Below are positions 1 through 31,245 of a stretch of DNA of 64,000 nucleotides, piece by piece; position 1 is the stretch's first letter; each line of letters opens with the position of its first letter. The stretch spans positions 798,568 through 862,567 of the forward strand of contig CAZFGX010000001.1 in NCBI GenBank assembly GCA_964518565.1, in the 5' to 3' direction. Position numbers and translations under genes: made by a program. Source of the stretch: an uncultured Gammaproteobacteria bacterium (GTDB lineage: Bacteria > Patescibacteriota > Microgenomatia > CAZETR01 > Amesbacteraceae). The notes under the pieces were generated by a model. The model was given only the letters and a program-made list of their open reading frames with translations, did no database searches and was not told the DNA's origin.

Positions 1-1245
1 TGTTTTAGTAAGTTTAATTAATTCATTAGATCTCTTTTCCGTCGGCTTACCACTGAAATTTCCCTTGCCAGCTGTTGCCACTTCTCCAGCATCCAAACTC
101 GAGTCTTGTCTATTTTTTTGCAAATTTCCCACCACAATACCCTGAATTTTATGTTTAGAAATTTCAGTCAACAAACTCAAGAATTCTTTATCAGTTTTCT
201 CAATTGGCATTTTTACATAAATAGGCCGTGAAATTTTTAATTGATCTATACCAATTAACAGAGTTTTTAAACGAGAAATTTCATACAAGGATTTAGCTCC
301 ATCAAGATTGGGACAGCTAATATTCAATTCATAATATTTATGATCCATATCCGCATTTTCAAACTTTTTAAATGCCGAAATAATATGTTCAATTTCTCCT
401 TTTGCATCCCCAATACTCACTCCCACTCTGTTTTCAAATTTCTTACCAGACAGTTTTTTAATAATTGCGTCAGCTCCAGGATTTCTAAATCCTTTATTCA
501 CCAATAAAGATTTCGATTTAGGCAATCTTCCTAGTCTAGGCTTAGCATTTCCATCCCATGGCAAATCTGTAATCGTTCCAATCGTCTGAAAAGTAAAACC
601 CCATGCCGGCAAAACTTTTGTCAACCTTCCTTCGTAATCAAACCCCGCTGCCAGCCCTATTTCATACGGCAATACCCTGGGTCTAAACATCATTTTTGTT
701 AATCCTGAAACGCCAGAAATATTAAATGCCATTTCTCCAAATCGAACCATATTTACATGAACTTGTTCCGGATCCAATAAAAATAATATTGGCTTAACAA
801 TTTTTTTATATGCTAAACCAAACAACACAATAAACCACCATTTCCTTTCCCGATGCAAGCTATACCAAATACTAAAAAACAAAATCGTACTTGTAATAGC
901 TGAGACCATACAATATCCACAAATTACACCTAACACTCCCAATTGCAGATATACAAAATACCCAGACATTATGAGTCCCACCAGCGTCTGTCCTACCGCC
1001 AGTCTTTTAGACCAAGGTTTATTGATTCCCAACCACAACAACAAAAATCCATAGTGCACTACCCCCCATAAAGCCAGCGGCATACCAAACAAATAGGCAT
1101 ATTCACTTCTTAGTACCGTCCCACAATCGAGCCAAGCAAATCGATTAATTGAACAAGGTGGTAACGAATTACTAAAGTGCTCATAGCTCAAATAACTCGC
1201 ATCCAAAAAGCCCAAAATTGCCAATCCCAAAAGTACCCATTTCAT
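1..1245 (-). CDS. pyrD: VKOR-domain / quinone-dependent dihydroorotate dehydrogenase (class 2 PyrD) fusion, C-terminus truncated by window edge
   Basis: Hand-translated minus-strand ORF, ATG at 1245-1243 with GAGGT RBS upstream; no stop before position 1. N-terminus has 4 hydrophobic helices, a loop Cys pair (PPCSINRFAWLDC) and a CGYC motif at a helix start, the VKOR signature. This is followed by LLDPEQVH, GLAAGFDYEG, FQTIGTITDLPWDGNAKPRLGRL, NKGFRNPG, LNISCPN and KMP, which align to E. coli PyrD. Confidence 0.7.
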   Translation of the reverse strand, partial: MKWVLLGLAILGFLDASYLSYEHFSNSLPPCSINRFAWLDCGTVLRSEYAYLFGMPLALWGVVHYGFLLLWLGINKPWSKRLAVGQTLVGLIMSGYFVYLQLGVLGVICGYCMVSAITSTILFFSIWYSLHRERKWWFIVLFGLAYKKIVKPILFLLDPEQVHVNMVRFGEMAFNISGVSGLTKMMFRPRVLPYEIGLAAGFDYEGRLTKVLPAWGFTFQTIGTITDLPWDGNAKPRLGRLPKSKSLLVNKGFRNPGADAIIKKLSGKKFENRVGVSIGDAKGEIEHIISAFKKFENADMDHKYYELNISCPNLDGAKSLYEISRLKTLLIGIDQLKISRPIYVKMPIEKTDKEFLSLLTEISKHKIQGIVVGNLQKNRQDSSLDAGEVATAGKGNFSGKPTEKRSNELIKLTKT

Positions 1246-1261
1246 ACGAAGCAATAATACC

Positions 1262-2524
1262 TCAAAACAGTCGAGTTTGTACTTCTTCTTTTTCCGGCCA
1301 AATTTTGACTACTCCATATTCACCATCAAATCCTGGCTTAATAAAAATGTCCCCTCGTCTCACTTTTAATATTGCTTCAGCCAATCTTTCTCCAGCAAAA
1401 TTTTTAATTTCATCTGATGTTGTTCTCATTAAAATTTCCAGTTCATTACCAAATTTTTCAATCAACATCTCATAAATTGCTTTCACTTTTTTAGATCCCA
1501 CTCCCACCTGATGCACTTCTGCCAAAATTTCCAATAAAGACACCAGTCTTACAAATGGTGGCTTGGATTTATTTTTATCTTGATGCCACTGCATTCCCAC
1601 TTCATCTTCATACATAACCATTTCGACATGTTGCTTAGTCAAATCTTCAATTCGCTGCATGACTCCAACAGTTAACATTCGTCCACACACCGGACATTTT
1701 GTGCCCAAATTTCTTGTTTGTTCAGGCGTCTGGATTACTTTGCAAGCTCGATGTCCGTTGTAATGATATTTTCCTTCTTCAGGAAAAAACTCCACAGTAT
1801 AGGCAATAGATTTATTTTTTATTGCCTTATAAAGCTCAGAATAACTCAAGTTTTCCATTTCAAAAATTGTCGCTTCTCGTCCCATTTTTACTGCCGAATG
1901 CGCATCTGAAAAACTCACGATCGCCCGATTATCCAGTTCTGGTATTTGCCAATTCATTTGTGGATCCGATGAAATTCCGGTTTCGATTGCCAAAATTTTA
2001 TCAACATATGGTCCATATGCTTGACTCAAAGTATCAAATCCTCCAAATGCTCCAAACACCGAAAACCACGGTGTCCAAGCATGTGCTGGAATAATCAAGG
2101 CGTTCTCACAAATTCCAAATACGAGTTCAGCAATTTGTATACAAGACAAACCAACAATCGGCCTACCATCTGCAGCTAAATTACACCCTCGTTTAGCCAA
2201 TTCTTTATTTATTTTCAATGCGATATCTAAGCTAGGTACCCATATCAAAGTATGTACCCGCCTTACTCGTCCATCCTGTTTAAAAATCGAAGATATCTCA
2301 GTTGCCAACAAAAACTGCATCCCATTGCATTCATATATACCCTCAGACTTTTCTACCAATTTTTTCTGTAATTCATCAAACCACAATGGGTGAGTCCAAT
2401 CCCCAGTCGCCAACAAATCTATACCTTTTTTCTTCCCCCAGATTGCCATTGTCTCAAGATTCATATCCGGCGATACCGCCCGAGAATATTTCGAATGTAG
2501 TTGCAAATCGGCTACCACTCTCAT
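1262..2524 (-). CDS. PHP-domain metal-dependent phosphoesterase with C-terminal Zn-ribbon (endonuclease Q-like / TIGR00375-like)
   Basis: ORF track 420 aa; N-term VADLQLHSKYSRA (PHP His motif), multiple His/Asp, CPVCGRML zinc-ribbon. Confidence 0.5.
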   Translation of the reverse strand: MRVVADLQLHSKYSRAVSPDMNLETMAIWGKKKGIDLLATGDWTHPLWFDELQKKLVEKSEGIYECNGMQFLLATEISSIFKQDGRVRRVHTLIWVPSLDIALKINKELAKRGCNLAADGRPIVGLSCIQIAELVFGICENALIIPAHAWTPWFSVFGAFGGFDTLSQAYGPYVDKILAIETGISSDPQMNWQIPELDNRAIVSFSDAHSAVKMGREATIFEMENLSYSELYKAIKNKSIAYTVEFFPEEGKYHYNGHRACKVIQTPEQTRNLGTKCPVCGRMLTVGVMQRIEDLTKQHVEMVMYEDEVGMQWHQDKNKSKPPFVRLVSLLEILAEVHQVGVGSKKVKAIYEMLIEKFGNELEILMRTTSDEIKNFAGERLAEAILKVRRGDIFIKPGFDGEYGVVKIWPEKEEVQTRLF

Positions 2525-3615
2525 AATTCACTAAATGCTTTTTGATAAAACTGAATATCTTTCTTTACTGCTTCAGCCCAGTCCGGCTTCAAATTATGAT
2601 CTGCTCCTAAATATTCATAATATGTAATTTGTTTTTGATTCTTTTTTAATCCCGCCACCAATTGTCTACTCCAAGAAACAGGCACCTGATCATCAGCAGT
2701 TCCTTGATGCAATTGTATCGGAGCATTAATTAAATTATAAAAATTTACGACTGTGTAATCATCTACATCATAATCTTCTTCAAACATAGCTAAGTCTTTT
2801 CTCTGCGCCTTGCCATAATCTGCCGTCTCATTTGAAAATACTAAAATCGAATATGGAAACGGTGCTGACACTGGTGCCCACAATACCGTCGGATAATTTT
2901 TTCCACTCGCTTCCAATACTGTCAAAGTCACCTGTCCCCCATTACTATGTCCCCACAAACCAATTCTTCTAGTATCCACCATTGGCAAAGTATCAATTAC
3001 CGACAACAAATCTAGGTCGGTAGTATATTTCTGAAATCTTTCTTCAAACACATTTTCACTCGGCATACTGGATCCTCCATACCCCAAAAAATCAGGTGCT
3101 AAAGAAATCAGTCCATGCTTCGCATATTCTCGCGCGCTCGGTGCTGTCCCGGCTCCAGCTGCATAACCTTCCTGCTCAATAAACCCCCTCGATTGTAATA
3201 TTAATGGGCATTTATTTTGCCCTGTACAATTATCTGGAATATGGGCCAAACCAGTTGCAGTCTTTCCTTCTGTTTTAAAAGTAAACGGATACACTCCATA
3301 TGCCAGTTCATCAGTCTTCGCATTTGCTTCTATATGTTTTATCTGCTGACCAAGTTTTAGATCACTACCTTGTGGAACACGCTTTTGCAATTCGGGAATA
3401 GCATATTTTTCCAAGTTAGCCGCCTGCCGAGAAGACAAACACAACTTACCCAATTTTTGGCCTATATATTGGCTTAAATAGCTATTTTTACTTACCTGTT
3501 CACAAAACTCTTGTTTTGATTTTGGCTGTTGCTGTTCATAAAAATTCTTCTGCCAAAACCATCCCACTCCCACTCCAATCCCCAAACACCCCAATGCCAA
3601 TAAAATATATTTCAT
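2521..3615 (-). CDS. secreted alpha/beta-hydrolase (esterase / S9 prolyl-oligopeptidase-like)
   Basis: 364 aa, N-terminal signal peptide (MKYILLALGCLGIGVGVG), nucleophile elbow GLWGHSNGG, C-terminal D/H catalytic residues. Confidence 0.6.
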   Translation of the reverse strand: MKYILLALGCLGIGVGVGWFWQKNFYEQQQPKSKQEFCEQVSKNSYLSQYIGQKLGKLCLSSRQAANLEKYAIPELQKRVPQGSDLKLGQQIKHIEANAKTDELAYGVYPFTFKTEGKTATGLAHIPDNCTGQNKCPLILQSRGFIEQEGYAAGAGTAPSAREYAKHGLISLAPDFLGYGGSSMPSENVFEERFQKYTTDLDLLSVIDTLPMVDTRRIGLWGHSNGGQVTLTVLEASGKNYPTVLWAPVSAPFPYSILVFSNETADYGKAQRKDLAMFEEDYDVDDYTVVNFYNLINAPIQLHQGTADDQVPVSWSRQLVAGLKKNQKQITYYEYLGADHNLKPDWAEAVKKDIQFYQKAFSEL

Positions 3616-3647: not shown

Positions 3648-3769
3648 GTTCTCGGCTTTGACCCATCTTCATACCATCTTGTGACGGCACTATTGTAGGC
3701 GCTGGCGCGTTTGACGGCTCTGTTCGGAATGGGAAGAGGTAGTTCCACGCCGCTCAAAAAACCGAGAAC
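3648..3769 (-). rRNA. rrf: 5S rRNA
   Basis: Reverse complement gives helix I GTTCTCGG...CCGAGAAC and the conserved GGCGTGGAACTACCTCTTCCCATTCCGAAC box; about 122 nt, directly downstream of the 23S 3' end. Confidence 0.75.
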
Positions 3770-3974
3770 GATACGCTTTTTTTTAAAGGTAAATCTTGTT
3801 CCCTGGAAAGTGAAGAGAATAGTGTAGTAGAGCAAATGTATGGAAACTTCATCTGACATATTCGTACTGGTAAGCTAAAACGATTACTCGCCTTACACTG
3901 CCAGCCGCTTATACGGGGTAGTCTTCCCCGTGTCATGTCTATCTTGCGATAGACTAGTTCCTAATCTTGGGTAG

Positions 3975-4007
<33 letters not shown>

Positions 4008-4124
4008 CGTAGGTTCATAGCTACCCGGCGCTGCATCTGACGACACAACCGGCACACCAGCGGAACCTCCAACCCGGTCCTCTCGTACTAAGGTCGGACC
4101 CCCTCAAGAACTCACGACTCTACT

Positions 4125-4173
<49 letters not shown>

Positions 4174-4241
4174 CTTTTAACCGGCGAACAGCCGGACCCT
4201 TGGAAGGTACTGCCCCTCCAGGATAGGATGAGCCGACATCG

Positions 4242-4572
4242 CACTGTCGGATGTGACCCCGCTTACGCGGGGCGTTGACTATACCTTCACCCTCAATAGA
4301 TAAAAATCTAAAGTAGGGGCTGACGTCTTAACCTGCCTCAGCAGATTCCGTGGTCTTGAAACCACAAGTCGATACGGGGTCATACCGTCAAAGGCGGTAG
4401 CGGACTTCCCTCGGGGTTTTCCTTTAAACGTTCGCTTTCAAAGGAGTTCTCCGATATGAGTCAGTAAAAAAACTAAAAAATTAATTTGGTTCAGAACAAA
4501 AAATAAATACAAAATAACAAGGCTTGTTAATGCCATTACTGGCAACACACCCCGATAATAACCTGTTTGGTT
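4242..4572 (-). mobile_element. putative group I intron (no ORF) in 23S rRNA at E. coli site L2500
   Basis: A ~331-nt AT-rich insertion splits GGCACCT | CGATGTCGGCTC (peptidyl-transferase loop). Exon 1 ends in U and the insertion ends in G, as expected for group I splice sites. Confidence 0.5.
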
Positions 4573-5102
4573 AAGGTGCCAAACCGCCGCGTTAATGTGG
4601 ACTCTTGGCGGCGATCAGCCTGTTATCCCTAGGGTAGCTTTTATCCGTTAAGCCCGGTGCCTCCCACGAGGCATCCGAGGATCACTACGACCAACTTTCG
4701 TTTCTGCTCGAGTGGCTACTCTCACAGTCAAGCGCACTTATGCCGTTACACGACTCGCTCGATTTCCATCCGAGCCTAGTGCACCTTAGCACCCCTGCGT
4801 TACACTTTAGCAGGGTACCTCCCCAGTAAAACTGCCCCTCTGACCGTGTCTCCGATAGCGTTTCCAGCTACCTTGGGTGAGTGCTGAGATCTCAAAGCGG
4901 GAGGTGTTTCATCGTTGCCCGAAGGCTCCCTCCTACACTAAACTACCTCAAAATCCAGCACAGGGCCAGAGTACAGTAAAGCTCCATAGGGTCTTTTTGT
5001 CCTAGTAGAGTAAGGCCGCATCTTCACAGCCATTTCAATTTCGCCGGGTAATAGTTCAAGACAGTTATTCCCTCGTTATACCTTTCATGCGGGTCGGAAC
5101 TT

Positions 5103-5409
5103 CAATTATTTTTGTTTCTCTATGTCGCCATAGAGTTCGGACTATATCTTCATCCTGATGTTAGTTACATCAAGAGCTCTGCGTGTAGTCTCTGGGGATT
5201 TCCCGCCAAAGGCGGGATCTTTCCTGCTGATTGACTCCACCATCGGATTATCACTCTTTCGAGTACCTTTGGATACTGAGTTATTCCAGCATATAGCAAA
5301 GTTTTCACTAACCACCTGAAAGAAATATTTTTTATCTAATTTAACTAATGATAGGAACCTTAGTGCCCCGCATTATTAATAAAAATAATGTAGGGTCGGG
5401 CAAGTTATT
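5103..5409 (-). mobile_element. putative group I intron-like insertion in 23S rRNA near E. coli L1917-1931
   Basis: A ~305-nt insertion sits between GGTAGCGAAGTTCCTTGTCGGGT and AAGTTCCGACCCGCATGAAAGG (helix 69-71 region); the flanks align to E. coli 23S 1900-1960. Confidence 0.45.
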
Positions 5410-6890
5410 CACCCGACAAGGAACTTCGCTACCATAGAACAGTTATAGTTACTGCTGCCGTTCACTCGAGCTTCATTTCAACGCCTTGCGACGCATCCAC
5501 TTAACTTACGAGCACTGGGCAGGTCTCAGCCTGTATACCGCCACTTTCGTGTTCGCACAGACCTGTGTTTTAGTTAAACAGTCGGGAAATACTCTTTTGT
5601 TGTAACCTCGCTTACGCGAGGCAGGACATCTTGCATAGCTTACGTCCAGCTTTTTTGCCGAGTTCCTTGAACTACCTTCTCCCGATCGCCTTGGTCTTCT
5701 CGACCATCCCACCTGTGTCGGATTACGGTACGGCAAAATATATATCTCACTACGAATCTTTTCTCGAAAGCAAAAACTGCTTACATTGCCAAGTCAATTG
5801 CTCAAATTGGCTTTACATCACCGCTCAATTAAACGTCAATCCGGATTTTCCAGGATCAACTATTTTACGGCTTATACGTGCATTCACTGCACACGCGTAA
5901 GACTTCTCACTTTGTCCATCCCTAGCTGATAACGATATATATCTTGTAGTCGAATATTAACGACTCGTCCATCGGTTACGCCCACTACGGCCTCACCTTA
6001 GGTGCCGACTAACCCCCCGCCAAACAATGGTGCGGAGGAACCCTTGGGAATTCGGCGTGGATGATTCTCACATCCATCACGCTACTCATTCCGGCATACT
6101 CACTTGAGATCGCTCCAGCCCGCTTCACAGCAAACCTTCACTGCAATCTCAACGCTCCCTTACCACTCCCTTTCGCACGAATGCGAAAGAAAATCTGTAT
6201 CTTCGGCAGAATGCTTAAGCCTCGGTTCATTTTCCGCGCCAAACTCCCAATACTCGACCAGTGAGCTGTTACGCTTTCTTTAAAGGATGGCTGCTTCTGA
6301 GCCAACCTCCTGGCTGTCTGAGGAGTTCAACTGCGTTACACACTGAGCATTCATTTAGAGGCCTTAGATGACAGTCTGGGTTGTTTCCCTTTAGAGCGAC
6401 GCGCTTAGCCGCGCCGTTCTGACTCCCACACGGGTGACGAACACGAATTCGAAGTTTGACTGAGGGCCACAACTTGCGCTGCAACACCCAACCAGTGCTC
6501 TACCTCATGTTCGATACGTGTAGGGCTATACCTGTATATATTTCAGGGAGAGCCAGCTATCTCCTGGTTCGATTGGCATATTACCCCTAACCACAAGTCA
6601 TCTCATAACTTTGCAACGTTAACGAGTGCGGGCCTCCCCCCACCTTTCGGAGGGGTTCACCCTGCTCATGGTTAGCTCACCAGGTTTCGGGTCTTCCAGC
6701 ATGTGCTTTTTTTCGCCCTGTTAAGACTCGCTTTCGCTCCGCCTCCCCCCACTTGTGGGGTTAGACTCGCGCATGCCGAAAACTCGCCGGATCATTCTTC
6801 AATAGGCACGCCATCACCCCATATTGCTACGAGGCTCTGACTGTTTGACAGCAGACAATTTCAGTATCTATTTCACTGGGCGTCCCGCCC

Positions 6891-6931
<41 letters not shown>

Positions 6932-7514
6932 GGATAAGAGTATTTAGCCTTGGAGTGTGGTCACCCCGGATTCCCACAAGATCGTATTTCTCATGGTACT
7001 TGGGTATCCAATAGCATTGCGACACATTTCAGATACGAGACTATCACTCTCTTTGGTCAACATTTCCATGTTGTTCTCTTATCTGTCACAAATTACATAT
7101 TATGGACCCCGCAACCCCCAAGTCTTGCGACTGGGTTTAGGCTGTTCCGCGTTCGCTCGCCGCTTACTAACGGAATCTCGTTGATTTATTTTCCTGCCCC
7201 TACTTAGATGTTTCAGTTCGGAGCGTTCCCTTCCTCGCCAAAGGCGTAGGATCCTCATAAAGAGGAGGTTTCCCTATTCGGACACCGCCGGATCAAAGCT
7301 TCTTAGCAGCTCCCCGACGACTTTCGTGGCTATGTACGTCCTTCTTCGGCTCATTATCCCCTAGGCATTCATTGTCTGCTTTACGGAAGTAAAACATACG
7401 GCTCTACTAATTCAATTCTCTTCACTTTTAAAAGAACAAGACTCATCAAGTCAGCCGTAAAAGCTGATATCAATCCTGAAAATATTTCAAAACTGATATC
7501 AATTTTTAACGAGT

Positions 7515-12114: not shown

Positions 12115-14280
12115 TTGCAAATTCGTCACAACGTATCTACACTTTATCGAGTAGGCATGAAAACATTATTCCTGTTTTCGATTATCACAGTTGTTACGCT
12201 TCTATTTCTTGCTCCTCAAAAAACCCTAGCCAGATCAAGCCCATTTCGTAAAACTATCGCCCTTGAACTAGACACGCTATGCAATCGCCCGCAACGCGCT
12301 TCTTTCCCTGCCGGGGCAGTTCCCGGCCAATATGTTTACCCACTCACCCAACGCGACATAAACTACATAAAAGATCTCGGAGCATCGTTAGTTATTATCC
12401 AAGGCGGTCCAGCTCTTTGGGCCAATGTTGCCAAAACTGATCCATATGCAAATAATCAAAATCCCGCCAATTGGAACAATACCAATTACAATTGGGAACC
12501 TCTAGATCGAGCTCTGGGCTTACTTCAGTTAAATAATATTGAACCCATCATCCAATCCTTTGGTACTCCATCATGGGCCAATGGCATTTATACCGATTCA
12601 TCTCTAGATTCAGATAATTGTTTTGATCTTCTGGACAACGGCCCCATTCTTCCCACTGCCCATAGCGGGCTTACTGAATATGCCAATTTTATGCAAGCCG
12701 TCGCCACGCGTTACGACGGGACCCATGCACCAAACCCATATCGCTTGGGAGGCTTTATCAGGGTAAACCGTTACATCCTCTGGAACGAACCCAATTATCA
12801 AGATTTCTGGACCGAAATTCGCAACGGTTTTCGTGTTCAAGATGTCGCTCAAGATTCAAGTTTAATAAACAAATTTGTCACCTTAAACAACCAAGCGTAC
12901 AACATGATCAAAGATGTAAATGCTTCCTCAATAATTTACGGCGGTGCTATCTGTGGCCATTGTGAAGGATTTACTTGGCTCAAATCGGCCTACAATGCCG
13001 GACTCAAGCTAGATGCCATTGCTGCCCATCCGTATCCCATTGATTACAATGTCAGTCCTTCAAATCAAACTCCTACCTCCACTCAGCTTTCTACAAACAA
13101 CATTCAAGCCTTAAAAAATCTTGTGGATAGTCTGCCAAATTGGGCAAACAAACCTATCTTCATGTCCGAATCAGGCTACAGAACCCACGAAGGTAAATTG
13201 TTTCCTAACGCTCAAGCAAACGAAGGACCATGGTTGTCTGAGATCTTCAGCATCTCCAAAGCCGTCCCGACCAATTATGGCTGGACCCAATTTTTACTTT
13301 ACCCAGAATCAAATTGGGGCACTGGACTAGTCTCAGATACTGGATCTGAAGCTTCCGATATTCGCTATCCTTCCTATTCAGTCTTCAAATCCACAGCTGA
13401 AATTTACCCCATGGACATGAACAACGACAAAATCATCAATTACAAAGATAATGTTCTTTTCATAAACGAAATTGGCCAATCCAACTCACTACTCAAAGAT
13501 CAAGCCGATCTAAACTCCGATGGCAAAATAAATTCTCTAGATTTCGCCCTCTCTACCAAAAACCGCAACGCCGATTTCCCCTTAACTGTTTCCCTGCCAG
13601 CCAAAGTTCCACTACCCATTAGATACGACGAAGTCACTATTTACCCCGACGGCAAACAAATACTTATTTATGGTTCAAATATGTGGGAAAGACCCAATCT
13701 ATCTACCACCTTCTGGTCAAGTGGACCGTTAGAAACCATATTTTTAGGTCAAAATGCTCCAGTCAGACTACCCAACACTCATATCGATAGCTACTCCGTC
13801 ATCCCTGATGGTGAAAATGCCGGAAGCATCACAGTCACAAGTGACAATCGTCGCTGGTATCGTAACAAACACGAACTCACCTGGACCACCTCCACCCTCA
13901 GCGAGCTTTGGACTGGACACACATCCAACTATCCTCTACCTATCAATGTCATTGAATCAAATACCATTATTCCTGCCGGACTCCCGACTGCTGGTGGTCA
14001 GTTAATTACTTCCGGAAACCGATATTGGTGGCGCAACTCCCAAACGAGCACCAGTTGGACGAGTGGCACATTAGCGGAATTATTCACTGGCCACTCTTCT
14101 TCCACTCCCTTACCCACTACCAAAATAGATGCAGTTATCACTTTTCCATCAAACTCACCTTATCCTGGTTGGCAATTTGTTTATTCAAGCGACCGCTACT
14201 GGTACCGTACCAATCTAAATTCCACCAGTTGGACCACAAATACTATTACCAACTCACTATCAGGCCACCAAGTCTACTAA
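12115..14280 (+). CDS. secreted glycoside hydrolase (clan GH-A TIM barrel, GH5/GH39-like) with dockerin module and three C-terminal ~60-aa repeats
   Basis: Signal peptide. ILWNEPNY (acid/base NEP motif) and IFMSESGY (nucleophile Glu). Dockerin Ca-loops DMNNDKIINYKD and DLNSDGKINSLD lie ~31 aa apart. Three RYW(Y/W)RN...SWT repeats follow. Confidence 0.75.
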   Translation: MQIRHNVSTLYRVGMKTLFLFSIITVVTLLFLAPQKTLARSSPFRKTIALELDTLCNRPQRASFPAGAVPGQYVYPLTQRDINYIKDLGASLVIIQGGPALWANVAKTDPYANNQNPANWNNTNYNWEPLDRALGLLQLNNIEPIIQSFGTPSWANGIYTDSSLDSDNCFDLLDNGPILPTAHSGLTEYANFMQAVATRYDGTHAPNPYRLGGFIRVNRYILWNEPNYQDFWTEIRNGFRVQDVAQDSSLINKFVTLNNQAYNMIKDVNASSIIYGGAICGHCEGFTWLKSAYNAGLKLDAIAAHPYPIDYNVSPSNQTPTSTQLSTNNIQALKNLVDSLPNWANKPIFMSESGYRTHEGKLFPNAQANEGPWLSEIFSISKAVPTNYGWTQFLLYPESNWGTGLVSDTGSEASDIRYPSYSVFKSTAEIYPMDMNNDKIINYKDNVLFINEIGQSNSLLKDQADLNSDGKINSLDFALSTKNRNADFPLTVSLPAKVPLPIRYDEVTIYPDGKQILIYGSNMWERPNLSTTFWSSGPLETIFLGQNAPVRLPNTHIDSYSVIPDGENAGSITVTSDNRRWYRNKHELTWTTSTLSELWTGHTSNYPLPINVIESNTIIPAGLPTAGGQLITSGNRYWWRNSQTSTSWTSGTLAELFTGHSSSTPLPTTKIDAVITFPSNSPYPGWQFVYSSDRYWYRTNLNSTSWTTNTITNSLSGHQVY

Positions 14281-14286
14281 ACACAT

Positions 14287-16479
14287 ATGATCAAATCACT
14301 CATCATTATCGGCGTACTAGCTACCACTCTCATCGTTGGTCTAAATTTAGCCAACAGAACTCAACGCATAAATTCAGAAGCAAGCAGTTTCAACACTCGC
14401 CTTTCATTACCAGCGACTTCTACCGCCACAGTAAACCAAACACTATCTCTGCCTGTTATGTTAAATACTGGCACAGCTCAAATCAGAGGCGCGGACGTGG
14501 TGCTTCAATACGACAAAACCAAACTCTCACTCAAATCTATCACTCCCAGTCTCTCTTCATCTTCTTTTACGTATCTACCGATAAACACTTCACATCTATT
14601 TGATATCAACAAAATTCTCCAACAAAGTAGTATTTCCGGCAACAATCAGACAATTGAATTTAACCTGGCCACTACTTCCATAGATAATCCTCAACCCACA
14701 ACCTTCTCCACGAACAACCAACCTATCCAAATTGCTATTCTCACATTCGATACTCTTAGCACTGGCAATACTCAAGTCTCTCTTATCAAAAATGGCGCTT
14801 CAACTACAGATAGTAATATCGCCCAAGCTGACAGTGGCCTAGATATTTTAGATTTTGTAGATAATAGTCTTGTTACAATTTCATCTCCCTCCACTTCCAC
14901 ACCCATTCCACCAACCGCGACAAAAACTCCATCAAACTCACCTACACTACCACCATCACCCACACCCACTCTCACACTCACCCCCACGCCTACACCCAAT
15001 CCGATCGGTTACCTAGACGATGCCACTTGTGCCACAATTTATGGCTGGTCATGTGATCCAAACTATAAAAATATTTCTGCCACAGTAACGATCAAAATCG
15101 ACGGCATTCCTCTCACACTTGTTACCGCCAACCAAACCCGGACAGACTTAAGTTCAGTATGTGGCAACACGACAAATCACGGATTCTCAATAAATACTCC
15201 AGCTTCAGTTTTTGACGGTCAATCTCACACTGTTACGGCCAGCAGCTCAATAAACGGTTATGTTAAAAATCTTACTGGTTCCAAAACCTTACGCTGTGTA
15301 ATCGCCACCGTCACCCCACGTCCATCCCCTACGCCTACAATTCGTCCCTCAATCACACCCACCCCCTCGCCCACCCCCACACCGATACCCACATCAACGC
15401 CCAAGCCTACTGCTACCAAAACCCCCACACCTATCCCTTCCACCACCACCTTCCCTCCAACACTCACTCCTGTCCCCACCACAATTCCCACAGCCACCGC
15501 TATACCCACTCCTATTCCAGATGGCTGGACTCGCTGTGCCACAGAAAACAATTTCTGCGCCTTTACCGGCACAGCTCAAGTCCGCTATGGCTTATTTGGA
15601 GCATATAACTATGGCGTCTTCACCAACGGCGTCCAATGTGCCAATTCTGTTTTCGGCGATCCTTTCGTCGGCTTTATAAAATATTGCGACTACCAATTAA
15701 TATCCACTCCCACACCTACCAAACCTCCCGTGGCCACCTCTACACCAAAGCCCACCACACCTCCTCAATCCACTAGCACCCCCAAACCCACCACACCTCC
15801 AGCCCCCACCTCTACACCTACTCCATCTTCCGATTGGATATATTGTGCCCAAGAACGCGAATTCTGTTCCTTTACAGGAACTGCAGAAATTCGCTATGGC
15901 ACACTCGGCAGTTACAATTACGGCACGTATACAAACGGTGTGGAGTGCAGCAATTCTGTTTTTGGCGACCCTTTCTGGGGTTTACGCAAACATTGTGATT
16001 ACCGCGTAATTACACCCGCTCCTGTTCCCACCCCCACTCTCCCAATCCTAAACAACGTCTTTAACATCTTTTACAACAATCTAGATTCCTCATGGCAAAA
16101 CTGGTCCTGGGATACCAATGTTCAAATTACCGATATTATTTCTACCACCTCAAACTCAAACAACGCTGGATTATATTTACGTAACCGTAACCCTCTACCT
16201 ACCAGCCAATATCAATATCTAAAATTCGATCTCAAAGCCAAACAACTACCCACCACAATTCGCATATTTGCATATGGTCAAAATTCCAACCCGCCTCTAA
16301 ATTCAGGCCTAGACATTAGTTCATACGGAACGATATCCACCCAAAATTTCATTACATTCAAAATTCCCCTATCCCAACTCAATGCAAACCAAACGGTATA
16401 TGGATTTTCATTCCAAATTTACGGCACATCTTCTTCAGGGAAAACAGTTTACCTAGACGATATTGTGTTATCAAACTAA
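14287..16479 (+). CDS. secreted multi-domain protein: cohesin-like module, PT linker, two Cys-rich ~58-aa repeats, conserved C-terminal domain
   Basis: Residues ~48-200 (LSLPVMLNTGTAQIRGADVVLQYDKTKLSL ... IAILTFDTLSTGNTQVSL ... LVTIS) follow the cohesin beta-sandwich pattern. Repeats GWTRCATENNFCAFTGTAQVRYG... and DWIYCAQEREFCSFTGTAEIRYG... are present. The C-terminus holds the shared W-x-W/LYLR/IDDI domain. Confidence 0.6.
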   Translation: MIKSLIIIGVLATTLIVGLNLANRTQRINSEASSFNTRLSLPATSTATVNQTLSLPVMLNTGTAQIRGADVVLQYDKTKLSLKSITPSLSSSSFTYLPINTSHLFDINKILQQSSISGNNQTIEFNLATTSIDNPQPTTFSTNNQPIQIAILTFDTLSTGNTQVSLIKNGASTTDSNIAQADSGLDILDFVDNSLVTISSPSTSTPIPPTATKTPSNSPTLPPSPTPTLTLTPTPTPNPIGYLDDATCATIYGWSCDPNYKNISATVTIKIDGIPLTLVTANQTRTDLSSVCGNTTNHGFSINTPASVFDGQSHTVTASSSINGYVKNLTGSKTLRCVIATVTPRPSPTPTIRPSITPTPSPTPTPIPTSTPKPTATKTPTPIPSTTTFPPTLTPVPTTIPTATAIPTPIPDGWTRCATENNFCAFTGTAQVRYGLFGAYNYGVFTNGVQCANSVFGDPFVGFIKYCDYQLISTPTPTKPPVATSTPKPTTPPQSTSTPKPTTPPAPTSTPTPSSDWIYCAQEREFCSFTGTAEIRYGTLGSYNYGTYTNGVECSNSVFGDPFWGLRKHCDYRVITPAPVPTPTLPILNNVFNIFYNNLDSSWQNWSWDTNVQITDIISTTSNSNNAGLYLRNRNPLPTSQYQYLKFDLKAKQLPTTIRIFAYGQNSNPPLNSGLDISSYGTISTQNFITFKIPLSQLNANQTVYGFSFQIYGTSSSGKTVYLDDIVLSN

Positions 16480-16511
16480 ATACTTTACTATAATAAAGTA
16501 CCAATCAAGTC

Positions 16512-18635
16512 ATGCATCCACATAAAAAAATCGCTCATCTTTCACTTCTGGTTATTCTCTCCGCTATTATTGCCACCGCTGCCATTATCCGCAATATCCA
16601 TCCACAAAAAGTCTACGCTGCTACCCCAATAGACGACTCCCCCGTCACCAAAAATGTTCTTGTCTTAAATTTTAATCCTATTATAGAAAGCCAAGGTGGT
16701 CAAAGGTTAACTCAACTCAAAAATTGGTCTGATCCACATGCCATTACCACCCAAATCGTAAACGCTTTTCCATCCATTAGCCATGGATATTTATCTATAA
16801 ATGTGACTGAATTCCAGGATTTAGACCAAATCTTTCCGCTCATTGACGGCTACCAATACACTGACGACACATTGCTTACCTGTCTATCAAACACCTCCAC
16901 CTGTCACAATCCCCAGGGTACTGACTACGCTCGAATGTTTACCGACTTCAATATTTGCTCCAAAAATGTCGACGAAATCTGGCTCTGGGGCGGACCATAT
17001 TTTGGCTATGAAGAGTTTAAACCCGTAAATTATTGTGGCAAAACCCAATTTGTCATGGGCTTTAGTTATGAACGTATGTTTGATGAAGCCATTCATGATT
17101 TTGGCCACCGGATGGAATTTGTAGGCAACAATCGTGTGGGTGATGGCAACTGGCAACAAAACGAGTCAAATGCCTGGAATCGCTATTCACTTATCGCCAA
17201 TCATTGTGGCAATGTTCACTATCCTCCAGGTTCTTCAATTCCCCAAGACGAATACATCTACAACAAGTCAGCGTCAGTCAGTTCAGATTGTGACGGGTAT
17301 CTCAACTATCCAGATGGGCCATTCACTCAAACGTCACTCACCTGTAGTGCATGGGGCTGTACCCAGGGTGGCTACGTCCAATGGTGGCTCTCACACATCC
17401 CTGCTAAAACTGGTCAAACTGTTGTCAACAACAAAACCATTTACAACAATTGGTGGAAATACTATGCCTTTTACGACGAGACATATGCTCCAACCCCCAC
17501 AAACACCGCAGGTCAATTTACCAACCTAAATGCGACATTAGAACCAAACAAATCCACTTTCAACTTTGCCTATTCTTCAGCCGCCAGCTCATATCGCATA
17601 GACATGTCTATCAGCGCAGACATGGTGTCTGGCACCTATTTATCATTTGGCCAGGGCACTAGCTCACCCATAGTGGTAAACGATCCCACCAAATGGGCTT
17701 CATACACCTGTGGCACACAATTTTGGTGGCGAGTTGTAACGCCTGAAAACTATATGAGTCCAATACAAACAGCGACAGTAGTCTGTAACAACGTCACCCC
17801 AACCACCACTCCCACTATTGGCCAATATACCAATCTCAGCTCCAGCCTTATTGCTACTCAAGCAACATTCAACTTCAACTACTCAGCCACCGCCAGTGCC
17901 TATCGAGTTGATATGTCCATCACTCCCGACATGTCATCGGGCACCTATCTCACCTTTGGTCAAGGCACATCTTCACCAATCATCGTTACCAATCCCACCA
18001 AATGGGCTTCATACACCTGTGGCACACAATTTTGGTGGCGTGTTATCGGATCTGACAGTTCTCAAAGCGCCATCCAACCCGCAGTGGTCAATTGTTCTAT
18101 CCCTACATCCACCCCGACCCCAATTCCCCCAACTCCCACAAACACTCCGCTTCCCACATCTACGCCCAAACCCACCCCTACACCCATCCCTCCTACTCCC
18201 ACACCAATTAAACCATTAGTTATTTATAGCAATAGTCTGACAGCTCCATGGCAAAATGCCAGCTACGGTGGCTCTACCACCTTCGGTTCAAACATCAAAT
18301 TCGTCTCCACTCAATCAGGTGGTCGAATGTATCTCAGATCTACCACTGCCATCTCTGCTCTGCCCTACAACTTCATCAAATTCTCTCTCAAAGGCAGTAC
18401 TCCAAATCTAAACATTCGTCTCCATGGTTACGGAATTAGTACTTCTACACCCATGGCAACCTACGGATTAACTTCAGCCAAGGGCTCACCGAGCAATTCC
18501 TCCTTTACGTCATACACAGTCGACTTAGCCAAAATAGACCCCACCGATGCCAACATCTACGGTATCGCATTTGAATTATATGGTTCCTCTGTAGGCAAAA
18601 CCCTCTATATAGACGACATCTCTCTGACGAAGTAA
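16512..18635 (+). CDS. secreted multi-domain protein of unknown function with two tandem ~100-aa repeats and conserved C-terminal domain
   Basis: Signal peptide; internal duplicated module (...KWASYTCGTQFWWRV...) encoded with a 47-bp perfect DNA repeat; PT linker; C-terminal shared domain. Confidence 0.6.
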   Translation: MHPHKKIAHLSLLVILSAIIATAAIIRNIHPQKVYAATPIDDSPVTKNVLVLNFNPIIESQGGQRLTQLKNWSDPHAITTQIVNAFPSISHGYLSINVTEFQDLDQIFPLIDGYQYTDDTLLTCLSNTSTCHNPQGTDYARMFTDFNICSKNVDEIWLWGGPYFGYEEFKPVNYCGKTQFVMGFSYERMFDEAIHDFGHRMEFVGNNRVGDGNWQQNESNAWNRYSLIANHCGNVHYPPGSSIPQDEYIYNKSASVSSDCDGYLNYPDGPFTQTSLTCSAWGCTQGGYVQWWLSHIPAKTGQTVVNNKTIYNNWWKYYAFYDETYAPTPTNTAGQFTNLNATLEPNKSTFNFAYSSAASSYRIDMSISADMVSGTYLSFGQGTSSPIVVNDPTKWASYTCGTQFWWRVVTPENYMSPIQTATVVCNNVTPTTTPTIGQYTNLSSSLIATQATFNFNYSATASAYRVDMSITPDMSSGTYLTFGQGTSSPIIVTNPTKWASYTCGTQFWWRVIGSDSSQSAIQPAVVNCSIPTSTPTPIPPTPTNTPLPTSTPKPTPTPIPPTPTPIKPLVIYSNSLTAPWQNASYGGSTTFGSNIKFVSTQSGGRMYLRSTTAISALPYNFIKFSLKGSTPNLNIRLHGYGISTSTPMATYGLTSAKGSPSNSSFTSYTVDLAKIDPTDANIYGIAFELYGSSVGKTLYIDDISLTK

Positions 18636-27059: not shown

Positions 27060-28543
<1,484 letters not shown>

Positions 28544-28645: not shown

Positions 28646-29167
28646 CTAAATTCTGACCCGTTGTAAAGCGACAGCTGCAGATACATGAACATTTAGTGAA
28701 GTATTAATTCCCCACATTGGTATCTCCACGATCAAATCAGCCACATCCAAAGCAGATTGGGACACTCCATCAGTCTCATGCCCCACGATCAGAGCTACCG
28801 GCATAGGCATGTCCGCAGTATCCAATGACACCGACCGTTCATTTTGCTCTACAGCCACAATCAATATTCCCTCCACCTCTTTACGTAAAGTTTCAATAGC
28901 TTCAAGGGCAGTGGGAAAATATCTCCACTTTACCCATTCCTCTGTTCCCACCGCTGCTTTATGGATCCGTGAGCCAGGCGGCGTCTCACTTCCACCACAT
29001 AAAACCAGCTCCATCGCCCCTACTGCATCAGCCAAACGAAACAACGAACCAATATTGTAGGTATCCAAAACATTATCCAAAATAAGCCAAATAGGTCGTC
29101 GTACCAATGCAGCGAGTTCAGCCTCAGAAGGTGGAGTCACCCGTAATTGTTTCGCATTCAATTTCAC
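28646..29167 (-). CDS. SpoU/TrmH-family RNA 2'-O-methyltransferase
   Basis: 173 aa; SPOUT knot motifs (LDNVLDTYNIGSLFR, LIVGHETDGVS, IPMWG..SLNVHVSAAV). Confidence 0.7.
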   Translation of the reverse strand: MKLNAKQLRVTPPSEAELAALVRRPIWLILDNVLDTYNIGSLFRLADAVGAMELVLCGGSETPPGSRIHKAAVGTEEWVKWRYFPTALEAIETLRKEVEGILIVAVEQNERSVSLDTADMPMPVALIVGHETDGVSQSALDVADLIVEIPMWGINTSLNVHVSAAVALQRVRI

Positions 29168-30024
29168 AATGCAGCCTCAGCAACTGATTTCATATCATTC
29201 CAGCTATATGCACCTGGAAAATTTTGTTCATTCACAAAAAATCCTGGCGTCCCAGACACACCCAAAGATCGTGCCAAAGATTGCTCAGTCGTCAACCGGG
29301 AAGCATATTTCCCACTATCCATACACTCCTTGAGTGCTTTCTGATCGACCACAGTCCCCAAAAAGGACACCATTGTTCCATTTTTAGATTTATCATTTTT
29401 TACCGTTGTGTTTATCATGTCATACCCTTCAGCACTCATTAATTTGTCATGAGCTGGCCAAAACTTTCCCTGATCATGAGCACAATACAAGGCGTTTGTA
29501 GCCACTTCACCATTACCATGACCATTACTATATATCCAGGCAAACGCTGCTTTCCCGGAATCAGCTAGTTTTTTCATTTCCTGAACCGGTGAAACATAAG
29601 TTCCCCCATCCGAAGTCAATATAAATTGTGTGCCCATCTGTTTTGACAATGTACCATTATGTCCGGCAGCTGCATGGCAATATGGACAAGAAGGATCAGC
29701 TACTTCCACCAACAACAATTTTGCATCCGGACTACCAAACTTAATCACATTTTCAGAAAAAATCTTTTTAATTTGGTCTTTAGTTACCTGCACTTGCTGT
29801 GGCTGTTGTTGTTGCTGAGCTGCTTGCGGCGGATTCGCAGCCAACTGCTCCAAATATTTTACTTTCGTCCAATAAGATCCCACCACAAACGATAAAGCCA
29901 TAGTCGACAGCCACATCAACGGTGCAAGCCTCTCCAATACAGATCGCCGAGTTTTCGGCGCTTCAACTACAACAGGCATATCCATTACTGGCTCATCGAT
30001 TATTTTTTTTCTTGCCACTGCCAT
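29164..30024 (-). CDS. membrane-anchored DsbA-like thiol:disulfide oxidoreductase (CPYC)
   Basis: N-terminal TM, Gln-rich linker, thioredoxin fold with active site DPSCPYCH. Confidence 0.65.
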   Translation of the reverse strand: MAVARKKIIDEPVMDMPVVVEAPKTRRSVLERLAPLMWLSTMALSFVVGSYWTKVKYLEQLAANPPQAAQQQQQPQQVQVTKDQIKKIFSENVIKFGSPDAKLLLVEVADPSCPYCHAAAGHNGTLSKQMGTQFILTSDGGTYVSPVQEMKKLADSGKAAFAWIYSNGHGNGEVATNALYCAHDQGKFWPAHDKLMSAEGYDMINTTVKNDKSKNGTMVSFLGTVVDQKALKECMDSGKYASRLTTEQSLARSLGVSGTPGFFVNEQNFPGAYSWNDMKSVAEAAL

Positions 30025-30045: not shown

Positions 30046-30924
30046 TTATGACTTCGCCAACCAGCGCTCTACATCAATAGCTGCTTCACACCCGTACCCA
30101 GCCGCAGTAATTGCCTGTCGATAATGATGGTCATGCACATCCCCAGCTACAAATACTCCCTCAACAGTGGTTTTGCTCGCTTCAGCTCGTTTTATATATC
30201 CCCGCTCATCAATCGCCAACTGACTAGCAAAAACTTTTGTCATAGGACTATGACCGATAGCCACAAATACGCCATCAATATCCATTATCTCTCCTCCCAC
30301 AAATCGTACCCCTACTACTTTCTCGTCGCCTAATATTTCTTCAATCTGTGTCTCAAATTTCACCGCAATCTTAGGATTTGCAAACAAACGATCTTGCATA
30401 ATTTTACTTGCCCGAAATTCATTCCGTCGATGAACCACAGTAACAGCGCTAGCAAATTTGGCCAAAAACAAAGCTTCCTCCATCGCACTGTCTCCACCAC
30501 CAACAACGATCACCTGCTTGTTTCGGAAAAAAGCCGCATCACACGTAGCACACCCTGACACTCCTCGACCAATCAATTTCTGCTCACTTGGCAATCCTAA
30601 CCAATTAAATTCAGCCCCAGTCGCCAAAATAATAGCCCTTGCCGAAACGCCATTTACCGTCTTTTTGGCCAGATCAATATCTACCGCATTCTCTTCGCGA
30701 ATCTCTACTCCAAATTTTTCAGCTTGTTTACGCATATTGATCATTAAATCTGGCCCCATAATTCCATCTACAAACCCTGGAAAATTTTCCACTTCGGTCG
30801 TTAACATCAATTGTCCACCCCACTTCTCCCCTGCAAACAACACGGTCTTCAAATTCGCTCGAGATGTATAAATTCCAGCCGTCAATCCTGCAGGTCCAGA
30901 TCCAATAATGATTACATCGTACAT
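30046..30924 (-). CDS. trxB: thioredoxin-disulfide reductase
   Basis: VIIIGSGPAGLTAG FAD motif, redox-active CATCD, second GGGDSAME NADPH motif. Confidence 0.85.
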   Translation of the reverse strand: MYDVIIIGSGPAGLTAGIYTSRANLKTVLFAGEKWGGQLMLTTEVENFPGFVDGIMGPDLMINMRKQAEKFGVEIREENAVDIDLAKKTVNGVSARAIILATGAEFNWLGLPSEQKLIGRGVSGCATCDAAFFRNKQVIVVGGGDSAMEEALFLAKFASAVTVVHRRNEFRASKIMQDRLFANPKIAVKFETQIEEILGDEKVVGVRFVGGEIMDIDGVFVAIGHSPMTKVFASQLAIDERGYIKRAEASKTTVEGVFVAGDVHDHHYRQAITAAGYGCEAAIDVERWLAKS

Positions 30925-30927
30925 AAA

Positions 30928-31245
30928 CTACAAACCAGCCTTAGACAGAAGTTGCACGTATCCACCTTTGCCAGCAAAACCTACTTGTCGACCCAGCTCT
31001 TTACCATCTTTAAACAAAATCACCGTAGGAATACTTTGTACACCAAATTGCCCAGCCAAAGCCCCTTCTTCATCTACGTTCACCTTACCTACAATCAATT
31101 TTCCAGCATATTCTTCTGCCAATCCATCGATTATTGGTCCAGCCATTTTGCACGGCCCGCACCACTCTGCCCAAAAATCGACCAAGGCCACACCAGTACC
31201 GGTTTTTGCAGAAAAATCAGCTGTAGTCAACGAAAGCGCTGCCAT
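30928..31245 (-). CDS. trxA: thioredoxin
   Basis: 105 aa, WCGPC active site. Confidence 0.85.
   Translation of the reverse strand: MAALSLTTADFSAKTGTGVALVDFWAEWCGPCKMAGPIIDGLAEEYAGKLIVGKVNVDEEGALAGQFGVQSIPTVILFKDGKELGRQVGFAGKGGYVQLLSKAGL

What the first reader, a model, noticed from the sequence alone, without database searches (positions are those of the whole stretch)
1..1245. Fusion of a VKOR (vitamin K epoxide reductase-like) membrane domain to quinone-dependent dihydroorotate dehydrogenase
One uninterrupted ORF encodes a 4-TM VKOR-type module, then a complete class-2 PyrD catalytic domain. The VKOR module has a loop Cys pair plus CGYC. PyrD has the conserved N-terminal helical quinone-site region (YKKIVKPILFLLDPE) intact. 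Both modules reduce membrane quinones. The fusion could couple extracytoplasmic disulfide-bond formation to the pyrimidine pathway through one quinone site, in an organism unlikely to have a respiratory chain. A DsbA-like CPYC protein plus TrxB/TrxA are encoded at 29164-31245.
Basis: seen in the sequence. Interest (0 to 1): 0.7.

Follow-up and report, generated by a model that had tools for sequence, protein, structure and literature searches.

The report
VKOR fused to dihydroorotate dehydrogenase
An ultra-small (CPR/Patescibacteria-type) bacterium encodes one membrane protein that joins the enzyme that drives disulfide-bond formation outside the cell (VKOR) to a pyrimidine-synthesis enzyme (dihydroorotate dehydrogenase). 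The fusion is real, conserved across a whole lineage and apparently undescribed, but how the two halves cooperate is still inference.

Summary
Window 1245..1 (- strand) is one open frame with a VKOR domain (Pfam 88.6 bits) followed by a DHO_dh domain. It runs off the window. An identical independent contig (L001) gives the full 469-aa protein. At least 120 database proteins share the architecture, and C31, C41, S47, C109 and C112 are invariant in all 121 aligned. An AlphaFold model of a 66%-identical relative (pLDDT 93.6, pTM 0.90) shows four VKOR helices running straight into the two N-terminal helices of a class-2-type PyrD.

- The catalytic base is Cys (NISCPN), not the class-2 Ser. E. coli K66 is Tyr, with a covarying Lys/Arg at the N116 position.
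- Predicted topology puts the VKOR redox site outside and PyrD inside, so "one shared quinone site" is not supported.
- Both modules donate electrons to quinone, so the fusion is not a redox couple as proposed.

Best reading: a bifunctional protein in which a working DsbA-reoxidising VKOR also anchors a CPR/DPANN-type, Cys-base PyrD beside a shared, probably scavenged, quinone pool. The electron sink is unknown. No paper in the searched library mentions this fusion. It is a new variant of known kinds, of moderate to high interest.

The parts
1..1245 (-). VKOR-PyrD fusion ORF. It holds 415 of 469 codons; the C-terminal 54 aa lie beyond the left edge of the window.
   Evidence: Translation. Pfam. 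Identical contig L001 gives the full length.
868..1239 (-). VKOR module, aa 3-126, with four transmembrane helices.
1123..1155 (-). Extracytoplasmic loop cysteine pair, C31 (1153-1155) and C41 (1123-1125). The conserved Ser47 follows at 1105-1107.
   Evidence: Invariant in 121/121 fusion proteins. C41 aligns with the loop Cys of Synechococcus VKOR.
910..921 (-). CGYC redox motif (C109-x-x-C112) at the outer end of TM4.
   Evidence: Both Cys are invariant in 121/121. They align with the CMYC motif of Synechococcus VKOR.
676..855 (-). Basic linker plus the PyrD N-terminal helical (membrane/quinone-tunnel) domain, aa 131-190. It includes Y146, F155 and H163 (= E. coli H19 / human H56).
   Evidence: HMMER alignment to E. 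coli PyrD residues 4-40. The model has helix 132-155 continuous with TM4, then helix 160-176. Linker K+R averages 3.6 per 17 aa with mean hydropathy -0.18. Invariance.
1..660 (-). PyrD FMN TIM-barrel, aa 196-415 (truncated by the window edge).
313..315 (-). Cys311 at the catalytic-base position (E. coli Ser175), in the NISCPN motif.
   Evidence: HMMER alignment to 1f76. Invariant in 121/121 and in all standalone CPR/DPANN relatives examined.
634..636 (-). Tyr204, replacing the FMN/orotate-contacting Lys (E. coli K66). Its covarying partner Arg254 lies at 484-486.
   Evidence: Y204 is invariant. Position 254 is K or R in every sequence that has Tyr, and is not K/R in the two relatives (L020, L023) that keep Lys.
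29164..30024 (-). Membrane-anchored DsbA/MdbA-like thiol-disulfide oxidoreductase (CPYC). It is the presumed extracytoplasmic substrate of the VKOR module.
   Evidence: Thioredoxin_4 (60.9 bits) and DSBA (38.4 bits). Sequence.
30046..31245 (-). TrxB-like reductase (30046-30924) and thioredoxin (30928-31245). They lie directly upstream of the DsbA-like gene on the same strand.
   Evidence: Pyr_redox_2 at 167 bits and Thioredoxin at 84 bits.

Best explanation
This is a bifunctional integral membrane protein of a CPR (Microgenomates-type) bacterium.

The N-terminal four-helix VKOR module is a working DsbB-like enzyme. Its outward-facing cysteine relay (C31/C41 to C109/C112) reoxidises the membrane-anchored DsbA/MdbA-like protein and passes the electrons to a membrane quinone.

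Its last helix runs directly into the two amphipathic N-terminal helices of a cytoplasmic FMN dihydroorotate dehydrogenase. That enzyme oxidises dihydroorotate to orotate for pyrimidine synthesis and also hands its electrons to a hydrophobic acceptor through the conserved tunnel (H163, R240).

The fusion therefore does three things:
- It turns a peripheral PyrD into an integrally anchored one.
- It fixes the two quinone-using enzymes at 1:1 stoichiometry.
- It places PyrD's tunnel entrance beside a protein that binds the same lipid cofactor, so both draw on one small, probably scavenged, quinone pool.

The two redox sites sit in opposite leaflets and are not a single site. The PyrD half belongs to a CPR/DPANN subtype with a Cys catalytic base, as in fungal class-II enzymes that work without respiration.

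Shown here: the architecture, its conservation, the predicted topology and fold, linkage to pyrG, and the presence of a DsbA-like partner. Inferred: both activities, quinone as acceptor, and the benefit of the fusion. The terminal electron sink is unknown.
For: - One frame, identical in an independent contig.
- 120/120 best hits share both domains.
- All five VKOR redox residues are invariant in 121 sequences.
- The residues aligned with E. coli N111, N172, N177, N246 and K217, and tunnel residues H19 and R102, are invariant.
- AF2 gives pLDDT 93.6 and pTM 0.90, with TM4 (111-130) followed after one residue by helix 132-155.
- The positive-inside pattern indicates N-in/C-in.
- The closest standalone VKORs (40-50% identity) exist in relatives, and one overlaps a DsbA-like gene. 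Meheust et al. report frequent MdbA-like/VKOR adjacency in CPR (PMC6744442).
- The order fusion gene then pyrG is conserved in the window's subclade: L001, L090, L091.
- Relatives P0014 and P0088 pass the TIGR01036 and NF003652 equivalog cutoffs.
- The Cys base has a precedent in respiration-independent class-II DHODs (PMC8520639).
Against: - Both canonical half-reactions reduce quinone, so the fusion brings no obvious redox gain.
- No quinol oxidase, quinone-biosynthesis gene or respiratory gene turned up among the window ORFs scanned. That covers only 64 kb.
- The same PyrD subtype works as a standalone protein in other CPR/DPANN genomes, and VKOR is standalone in others. Neither half therefore needs the other.
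- Gene neighbourhoods of the fusion are otherwise not conserved.
- The active site is remodelled (K66Y, T247L, Y318I, S175C), and the window protein scores below the class-2 equivalog cutoffs (181.6 < 200 for TIGR01036).
Confidence: 0.55

Rival explanations
1. Transmembrane redox relay. PyrD reduces a quinone held at the protein-lipid interface, and the quinol is reoxidised by the VKOR module running in reverse. Electrons from dihydroorotate then leave the cell through the C109/C112 to C31/C41 relay to an extracytoplasmic disulfide acceptor, either the DsbA-like protein or low-molecular-weight disulfides. This would give respiration-independent pyrimidine synthesis.
For: - The group is described as lacking electron transport chains (title of PMC7507113). 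No sink was found in the window.
- The Cys base matches class-II DHODs that work without respiration (PMC8520639).
- The junction is rigid and confidently modelled.
- All VKOR cysteines are under strict selection.
- The net reaction, DHO (about -258 mV) to a DsbA-type disulfide (about -120 mV), is downhill. These are textbook potentials from my own knowledge.
- The DsbA-like gene sits in an apparent operon with trxA and trxB, a reducing system.
- C. botulinum DsbA can exchange with low-molecular-weight redox compounds such as glutathione disulfide (PMC12453122).
Against: - No VKOR or DsbB is known to run physiologically from quinol to disulfide. With menaquinone (about -74 mV) that step is uphill.
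- Standalone PyrD of the same subtype exists without VKOR, and standalone VKOR sits in a classical DsbA context in relatives.
- The two sites lie in opposite leaflets.
- The model would leave the DsbA-like protein without an oxidant for its usual role.
Confidence: 0.15
2. VKOR serves only as a membrane anchor. The N-terminal module has lost its enzymatic role and merely tethers PyrD, much as the single TM helix does for mitochondrial DHODH.
For: Class-2 DHODHs need membrane association, and eukaryotic enzymes acquired a TM anchor (PMC8520639 background). TM4 ends at the cytoplasmic face and leads directly into the PyrD helices.
Against: C31, C41, S47, C109, C112, Y65 and S115 are invariant across 121 sequences that are only about 50% identical overall. 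A pure anchor would not keep them. No second VKOR lies in the 64-kb window or in the 7.5 kb of L001 beyond it, while a DsbA-like partner is present.
Confidence: 0.08
3. The C-terminal domain is not a dihydroorotate dehydrogenase. It is a DHODH-like flavoenzyme with a different substrate or acceptor, whose product or electrons relate to VKOR function.
For: Four active-site positions differ from every canonical class-2 enzyme: S175C, K66Y, T247L and Y318I. The window protein scores below all NCBIfam class-2 equivalog cutoffs.
Against: - All four substrate-binding Asn and K217 are invariant.
- Loss of K66 covaries with gain of K/R at the N116 position, which suggests a relocated lysine rather than a lost function.
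- The gene is followed by pyrG in three related loci.
- Relatives pass the TIGR01036 cutoff.
Confidence: 0.08
4. Assembly or sequencing artefact: a frameshift or missed stop has merged two adjacent genes.
For: None found. The idea arises only because the window is a metagenome-type assembly.
Against: There are zero mismatches to an independent contig over 3301 bases. The same architecture appears in 120 proteins from NCBI, JGI, ENA and Logan assemblies. The junction sequence is conserved, including invariant Y146. No related locus with adjacent split genes was seen.
Confidence: 0.01

Closest known systems
Bacterial VKOR homologues that reoxidise DsbA/MdbA (M. tuberculosis, Actinomyces oris) and the Synechococcus VKOR-thioredoxin fusion (PDB 4nv2/4nv5)
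   Different: The fused partner is a cytoplasmic flavoenzyme attached directly after TM4. In Synechococcus the partner is an extracytoplasmic thioredoxin-like domain attached through a fifth TM helix. Here there is no fifth TM helix. Pairwise sequence similarity to the solved VKOR is weak (E 0.11).
Class 2 (quinone-dependent) dihydroorotate dehydrogenase, e.g. E. coli PyrD (1f76) and human DHODH
   Same: These are the best sequence and structure matches. The N-terminal two-helix domain is retained. The FMN barrel, the four Asn, K217, and tunnel residues His (H19/H56) and Arg (R102/R136) are conserved.
   Different: Cys replaces the defining Ser base. K66 is Tyr with a K/R at the N116 position, T247 is Leu and Y318 is Ile. 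The protein is integrally anchored through VKOR rather than peripheral (bacteria) or anchored by one TM helix (mitochondria).
Fungal class-II DHODs that support anaerobic pyrimidine synthesis (SjUra9, DbUra9, ArUra9; PMC8520639)
   Same: They have a class-II scaffold with Cys at the catalytic-base position and come from organisms or conditions without respiration. The Cys is required for anaerobic function of SjUra9.
   Different: They are eukaryotic and have no VKOR fusion. ArUra9 lacks the N-terminal quinone domain and uses free flavins. The CPR enzymes keep the N-terminal domain, and their acceptor is untested.
Standalone Cys-base PyrD of other CPR and DPANN genomes (L013, L016, L018, L021 and others)
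   Same: They carry the same signature (AAGFDYE, KGFKN, NISCPN, GNLQK, LITG) and are 37-48% identical to the window protein's PyrD half.
   Different: They have no VKOR module and no VKOR gene within 10 kb. In the NJ tree most branch below the fusion clade, and a few are nested within it.
VKOR-centred fused or adjacent redox modules in giant viruses (PMC13486548)
   Same: They show VKOR recruited into multi-enzyme modules that share vitamin K-type quinone chemistry.
   Different: [quoted passage not shown] Here the partner is another quinone reducer.

Membership tests
VKOR family (PF07884) | Profile match above the curated threshold | tested here: met
   88.6 bits against a cutoff of 27.5, aa 3-126 covering profile positions 1-133 of 134.
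VKOR family (PF07884) | Four-helix transmembrane bundle | tested here: met
VKOR family (PF07884) | Loop cysteine pair, conserved Ser/Thr, and CxxC at the start of TM4 | tested here: met
   C31, C41, S47, C109 and C112 are invariant in 121/121. They align with the Synechococcus motifs.
VKOR family (PF07884) | Thiol:quinone oxidoreductase activity with a Trx/DsbA-like partner | not testable with these tools
   A DsbA-like CPYC protein is encoded at 29164-30024. A related standalone VKOR overlaps a DsbA-like gene. Activity itself needs an experiment.
Class 2 quinone-dependent DHODH (TIGR01036 / PRK05286) | Equivalog profile score above the curated cutoff | tested here: not met
   The full-length window protein scores 181.6 against 200 for TIGR01036 and 225.5 against 267 for NF003652. 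Relatives P0014 and P0088 do pass both.
Class 2 quinone-dependent DHODH (TIGR01036 / PRK05286) | N-terminal two-helix membrane/quinone-tunnel domain preceding the barrel | tested here: met
   Aligned to E. coli residues 4-40. The model has helices 132-155 and 160-176. H163 and R240 (human H56 and R136) are invariant. Foldseek TMt 0.88 to full-length M. tuberculosis DHODH.
Class 2 quinone-dependent DHODH (TIGR01036 / PRK05286) | Serine as catalytic base (E. coli S175) | tested here: not met
   Cys311 occupies that position and is invariant in 121 fusions and 15 GTDB relatives.
Class 2 quinone-dependent DHODH (TIGR01036 / PRK05286) | FMN/orotate-binding residues (K66, N111, N172, N177, K217, N246) | tested here: inconclusive
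   Five of the six are invariant. K66 is replaced by Tyr, with a covarying K/R at the N116 position. Whether this preserves catalysis is untested.
Class 2 quinone-dependent DHODH (TIGR01036 / PRK05286) | Quinone as physiological electron acceptor | not testable with these tools
   Inferred only from the retained tunnel domain.
Class 1 DHODH (1A fumarate-, 1B NAD-dependent) | Cysteine catalytic base | tested here: met
   NISCPN motif.
Class 1 DHODH (1A fumarate-, 1B NAD-dependent) | Soluble enzyme without an N-terminal extension, with closest similarity to class-1 sequences or profiles | tested here: not met
VKOR-thioredoxin fusion (Synechococcus / plant LTO1 type) | Fifth TM helix carrying an extracytoplasmic Trx/DsbA-like domain | tested here: not met
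   No fifth TM helix. The linker is basic with mean hydropathy -0.18, and the fused domain is DHO_dh.

The most novel reading that the evidence does not exclude
The fusion is a self-contained transmembrane electron relay. A privately held quinone carries electrons from cytoplasmic dihydroorotate oxidation to the VKOR cysteine relay working in reverse, and so to extracytoplasmic disulfides. A bacterium with no respiratory chain would then make pyrimidines by 'respiring' disulfides. This would be the first physiological quinol-to-disulfide VKOR and a new class of DHODH acceptor.
Probability: 0.12. Interest if true: 0.85.

Novelty: new variant of a known kind. Interest (0 to 1): 0.55.

Why it matters
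CPR/Patescibacteria are described as lacking electron transport chains. Yet this lineage keeps two enzymes whose textbook acceptor is a membrane quinone and has welded them into one polypeptide.

That makes three open questions concrete and testable with a single clonable gene:
- How do ultra-small, host-dependent bacteria make extracellular disulfide bonds, which are needed for pili and adhesion?
- How do they oxidise dihydroorotate without respiration?
- Do they scavenge and economise quinones?

The work also defines a CPR/DPANN-wide PyrD subtype: a class-2 scaffold with a Cys base and a relocated active-site lysine. It parallels the unexplained respiration-independent class-II DHODs of anaerobic fungi.

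Tried and rejected
I modelled the 66%-identical P0001 instead. Model coordinates are not exposed, so I could not measure the distance between the CxxC site and the FMN/tunnel.
2. The afdb50 fold library was unavailable, so there is no census of the architecture in UniProt/AFDB.
3. Conserved neighbourhood. Three diverse fusion loci share no neighbours. Only pyrG linkage within the window's subclade held up.
4. Cytochrome b5 as the missing electron sink. The b5 gene directly after the fusion gene is absent from every other fusion locus fetched. Its Patescibacteria homologues sit in unrelated contexts. It was kept only as a passing note.
5. Split adjacent VKOR and PyrD genes as a Rosetta-stone test. 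None was found. Of the three standalone VKORs examined, one overlaps a DsbA-like gene and none neighbours PyrD. Standalone PyrDs have no VKOR within 10 kb.
6. Looking up the DsbA-like protein to obtain annotated window context failed because the protein is not on record.
7. Literature. No paper in the library combines VKOR with DHODH outside ferroptosis reviews, and none combines DHODH with CPR. PMC7507113 contains no text on quinones.
8. Orotate as the sink for disulfide formation (VKOR to quinone to FMN to orotate) was rejected on thermodynamic grounds. It is about 140 mV uphill by textbook potentials.
9. A fifth TM helix that would put PyrD outside was rejected. The family-wide linker is basic and not hydrophobic.

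Full report
**Observation.** On the minus strand, window 1245..1 is one open frame of 415 codons with no stop. It starts at an ATG 16 nt after the stop of the upstream gene. Pfam finds VKOR (PF07884, aa 3-126, 88.6 bits) and DHO_dh (PF01180, aa 196-410, 105 bits). NCBIfam's quinone-dependent DHODH models align from aa 145 onward. The frame runs off the left edge of the window. A Logan contig (L001, SRR29476910) found through the neighbouring gene is identical to window 1..3301 with 0 mismatches. It continues the frame to a stop, giving 469 aa with the DHO_dh profile covered 15-287 of 291 at 156.8 bits.

**Not an artefact, and recurrent.** All 120 best hits in a 5.8-billion-protein collection carry both Pfam domains. 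They are 478-548 aa long and 45-66% identical. Those with names come from Candidatus Roizmanbacteria or the Patescibacteria group. A full scan of 1.84 billion representatives with the junction-spanning query (aa 1-215) found roughly 20 clusters at 50% identity that span the junction. The remaining top hits are standalone VKORs, mostly of about 140-160 aa. The family is real but confined to one lineage. The window itself has CPR hallmarks: 16S and 23S genes about 20 kb apart and a group I intron in the 23S.

It is not a textbook class-2 enzyme, however:
- The catalytic-base position (E. coli S175) is Cys in all 121 fusions.
- K66 is Tyr, T247 is Leu and Y318 is Ile.
- The window protein scores below the class-2 equivalog cutoffs, although relatives P0014 and P0088 pass.

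A scan of GTDB species genomes shows that the same signature occurs in standalone PyrDs of other CPR and of DPANN archaea, with no VKOR within 10 kb. Two deep-branching relatives keep K66 and lack the K/R at the N116 position. Every sequence with Tyr at the K66 position has K/R there. This suggests a relocated lysine rather than a lost function. In a rough NJ tree most standalone forms branch below the fusion clade and a few are nested within it. That fits one fusion event followed by occasional loss. In the window's own subclade the fusion gene is followed directly by CTP synthase (pyrG) in three loci, which supports a pyrimidine role. A published precedent exists for Cys-base class-II DHODs: in fungi that grow anaerobically, such enzymes support pyrimidine synthesis without respiration. 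For one of them the Cys is required (PMC8520639).

**Topology and geometry.** Across the family, three segments are basic: the N-terminus, the TM2-TM3 loop (2.8 K+R in 9 residues) and the post-TM4 linker (3.6 K+R in 17 residues, mean hydropathy -0.18). The Cys loop has no net charge. This gives the canonical N-in/C-in VKOR topology, with the cysteines and quinone pocket at the outer face and PyrD in the cytoplasm. There is no fifth TM helix. In the model, TM4 (111-130) is followed after one residue by helix 132-155, the first PyrD membrane helix. PyrD's tunnel entrance is therefore held at the cytoplasmic foot of the VKOR bundle. The two redox sites are still in opposite leaflets. I could not measure distances because model coordinates are not exposed.

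**Mechanism.** Both canonical reactions donate electrons to quinone: DsbA thiols through VKOR, and dihydroorotate through FMN. The fusion is therefore not a donor-acceptor couple.

The most economical reading (confidence 0.55) is a bifunctional protein. A working VKOR also serves as the integral anchor of PyrD. The two enzymes are fixed at 1:1 around the same small quinone pool, which in such organisms is plausibly scavenged, as suggested for VKOR-bearing, quinone-less Clostridia (PMC12453122). The electron sink is unknown.

The more novel rival (confidence 0.15) is a relay in which VKOR runs in reverse and exports the electrons of dihydroorotate to extracytoplasmic disulfides. Overall it is thermodynamically downhill by textbook potentials. 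It lacks any precedent, and both halves occur alone in related organisms, so it is not required.

Three further readings are disfavoured for the reasons given under the rival explanations: anchor only, a different substrate for the barrel, and an assembly artefact.

**Leads that went nowhere.** A TM-anchored or secreted cytochrome b5 (HPGG motif; Pfam 70 bits) sits between the fusion gene and pyrG in this organism only. It is absent from all other fusion loci, and its Patescibacteria homologues lie in unrelated contexts. It cannot be a general sink. No respiratory or quinone-biosynthesis genes appeared among about 40 window ORFs scanned, but 64 kb is not a genome.

**Novelty.** Seven full-text searches found no paper that mentions a VKOR-DHODH fusion or discusses DHODH in CPR. 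Database entries carry only automatic names such as 'quinone-dependent dihydroorotate dehydrogenase' or 'VKOR family protein'. I rate it a new variant of known kinds: a new domain architecture built from two known families, plus a distinct PyrD subtype. Interest is about 0.55. It is a clean, clonable handle on how respiration-less ultra-small bacteria handle quinone-dependent chemistry, but its functional significance is still inferred.

Noticed in passing
L001:3484-3858 (+), just beyond the left edge of the window (left of window position 1, - strand): A 124-aa cytochrome b5 (PF00173, 70 bits; HPGG and a second His) with an N-terminal TM/signal segment lies between the fusion gene and pyrG, with spacers of 17 and 18 nt. 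It is predicted to be extracytoplasmic. It is absent from all other fusion loci, and its Patescibacteria homologues sit in unrelated contexts.
   Followed up: yes
window 3844-7390 (-), 5118-5388 (-), 27062-28545 (-): The 23S rRNA gene is 3547 nt long and carries a group I intron. The 5S gene lies next to it (3650-3766). The 16S gene is unlinked, about 20 kb away. This is typical of CPR/Patescibacteria.
   Followed up: partly
window about 54800-55020 (-): A second group I intron (Rfam 62.8 bits) lies outside the rRNA genes. ARAGORN finds no tRNA there. In-silico removal of a roughly 190-nt segment shifted 10-16 nt from the Rfam boundaries yields a 71-nt tRNA, so the intron interrupts a tRNA gene. 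The anticodon is ambiguous and depends on the exact splice site. Compare PMC13011429.
   Followed up: partly
window 29164-31245 (-): trxA, a trxB-like gene and the membrane-anchored DsbA-like CPYC gene are tightly packed on one strand, with gaps of 3 and 21 nt. This pairs a cytoplasmic reducing system with an extracytoplasmic oxidoreductase. Whether they are co-transcribed or functionally linked is unknown.
   Followed up: no
L015:9836-11242: A Paceibacterota PyrD of the same Cys-base subtype is preceded in frame by a different hydrophobic N-terminal region, interrupted by a stop codon. This may be an alternative membrane anchor, or a pseudogene or frameshift.
   Followed up: no
L008, L010, L011, L019 (GTDB records): MAGs titled 'uncultured Gammaproteobacteria' or 'Pseudomonadales' carry CPR-type VKOR-PyrD or Cys-base PyrD genes. 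One sits on a 950-kb contig. The record titles are probably wrong taxonomic labels.
   Followed up: no
window 12115-18635 (+) and 19500-22760 (+): Three consecutive ORFs of about 710-730 aa have almost no Pfam matches (one dockerin repeat). After a tRNA gene and a 185-aa ORF comes a 1086-aa protein with a PQQ-type glucose/sorbosone dehydrogenase (GSDH) domain. This looks like a block of large, probably surface, proteins.
   Followed up: no
window 33577-35262 (-) and 61887-63998 (-): An ATP-dependent (archaeal/eukaryotic-type) DNA ligase with all three domains. Also a ribonucleotide reductase whose barrel domain matches in two stretches and which carries a TSCPD domain, so it may contain an insertion.
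   Followed up: no
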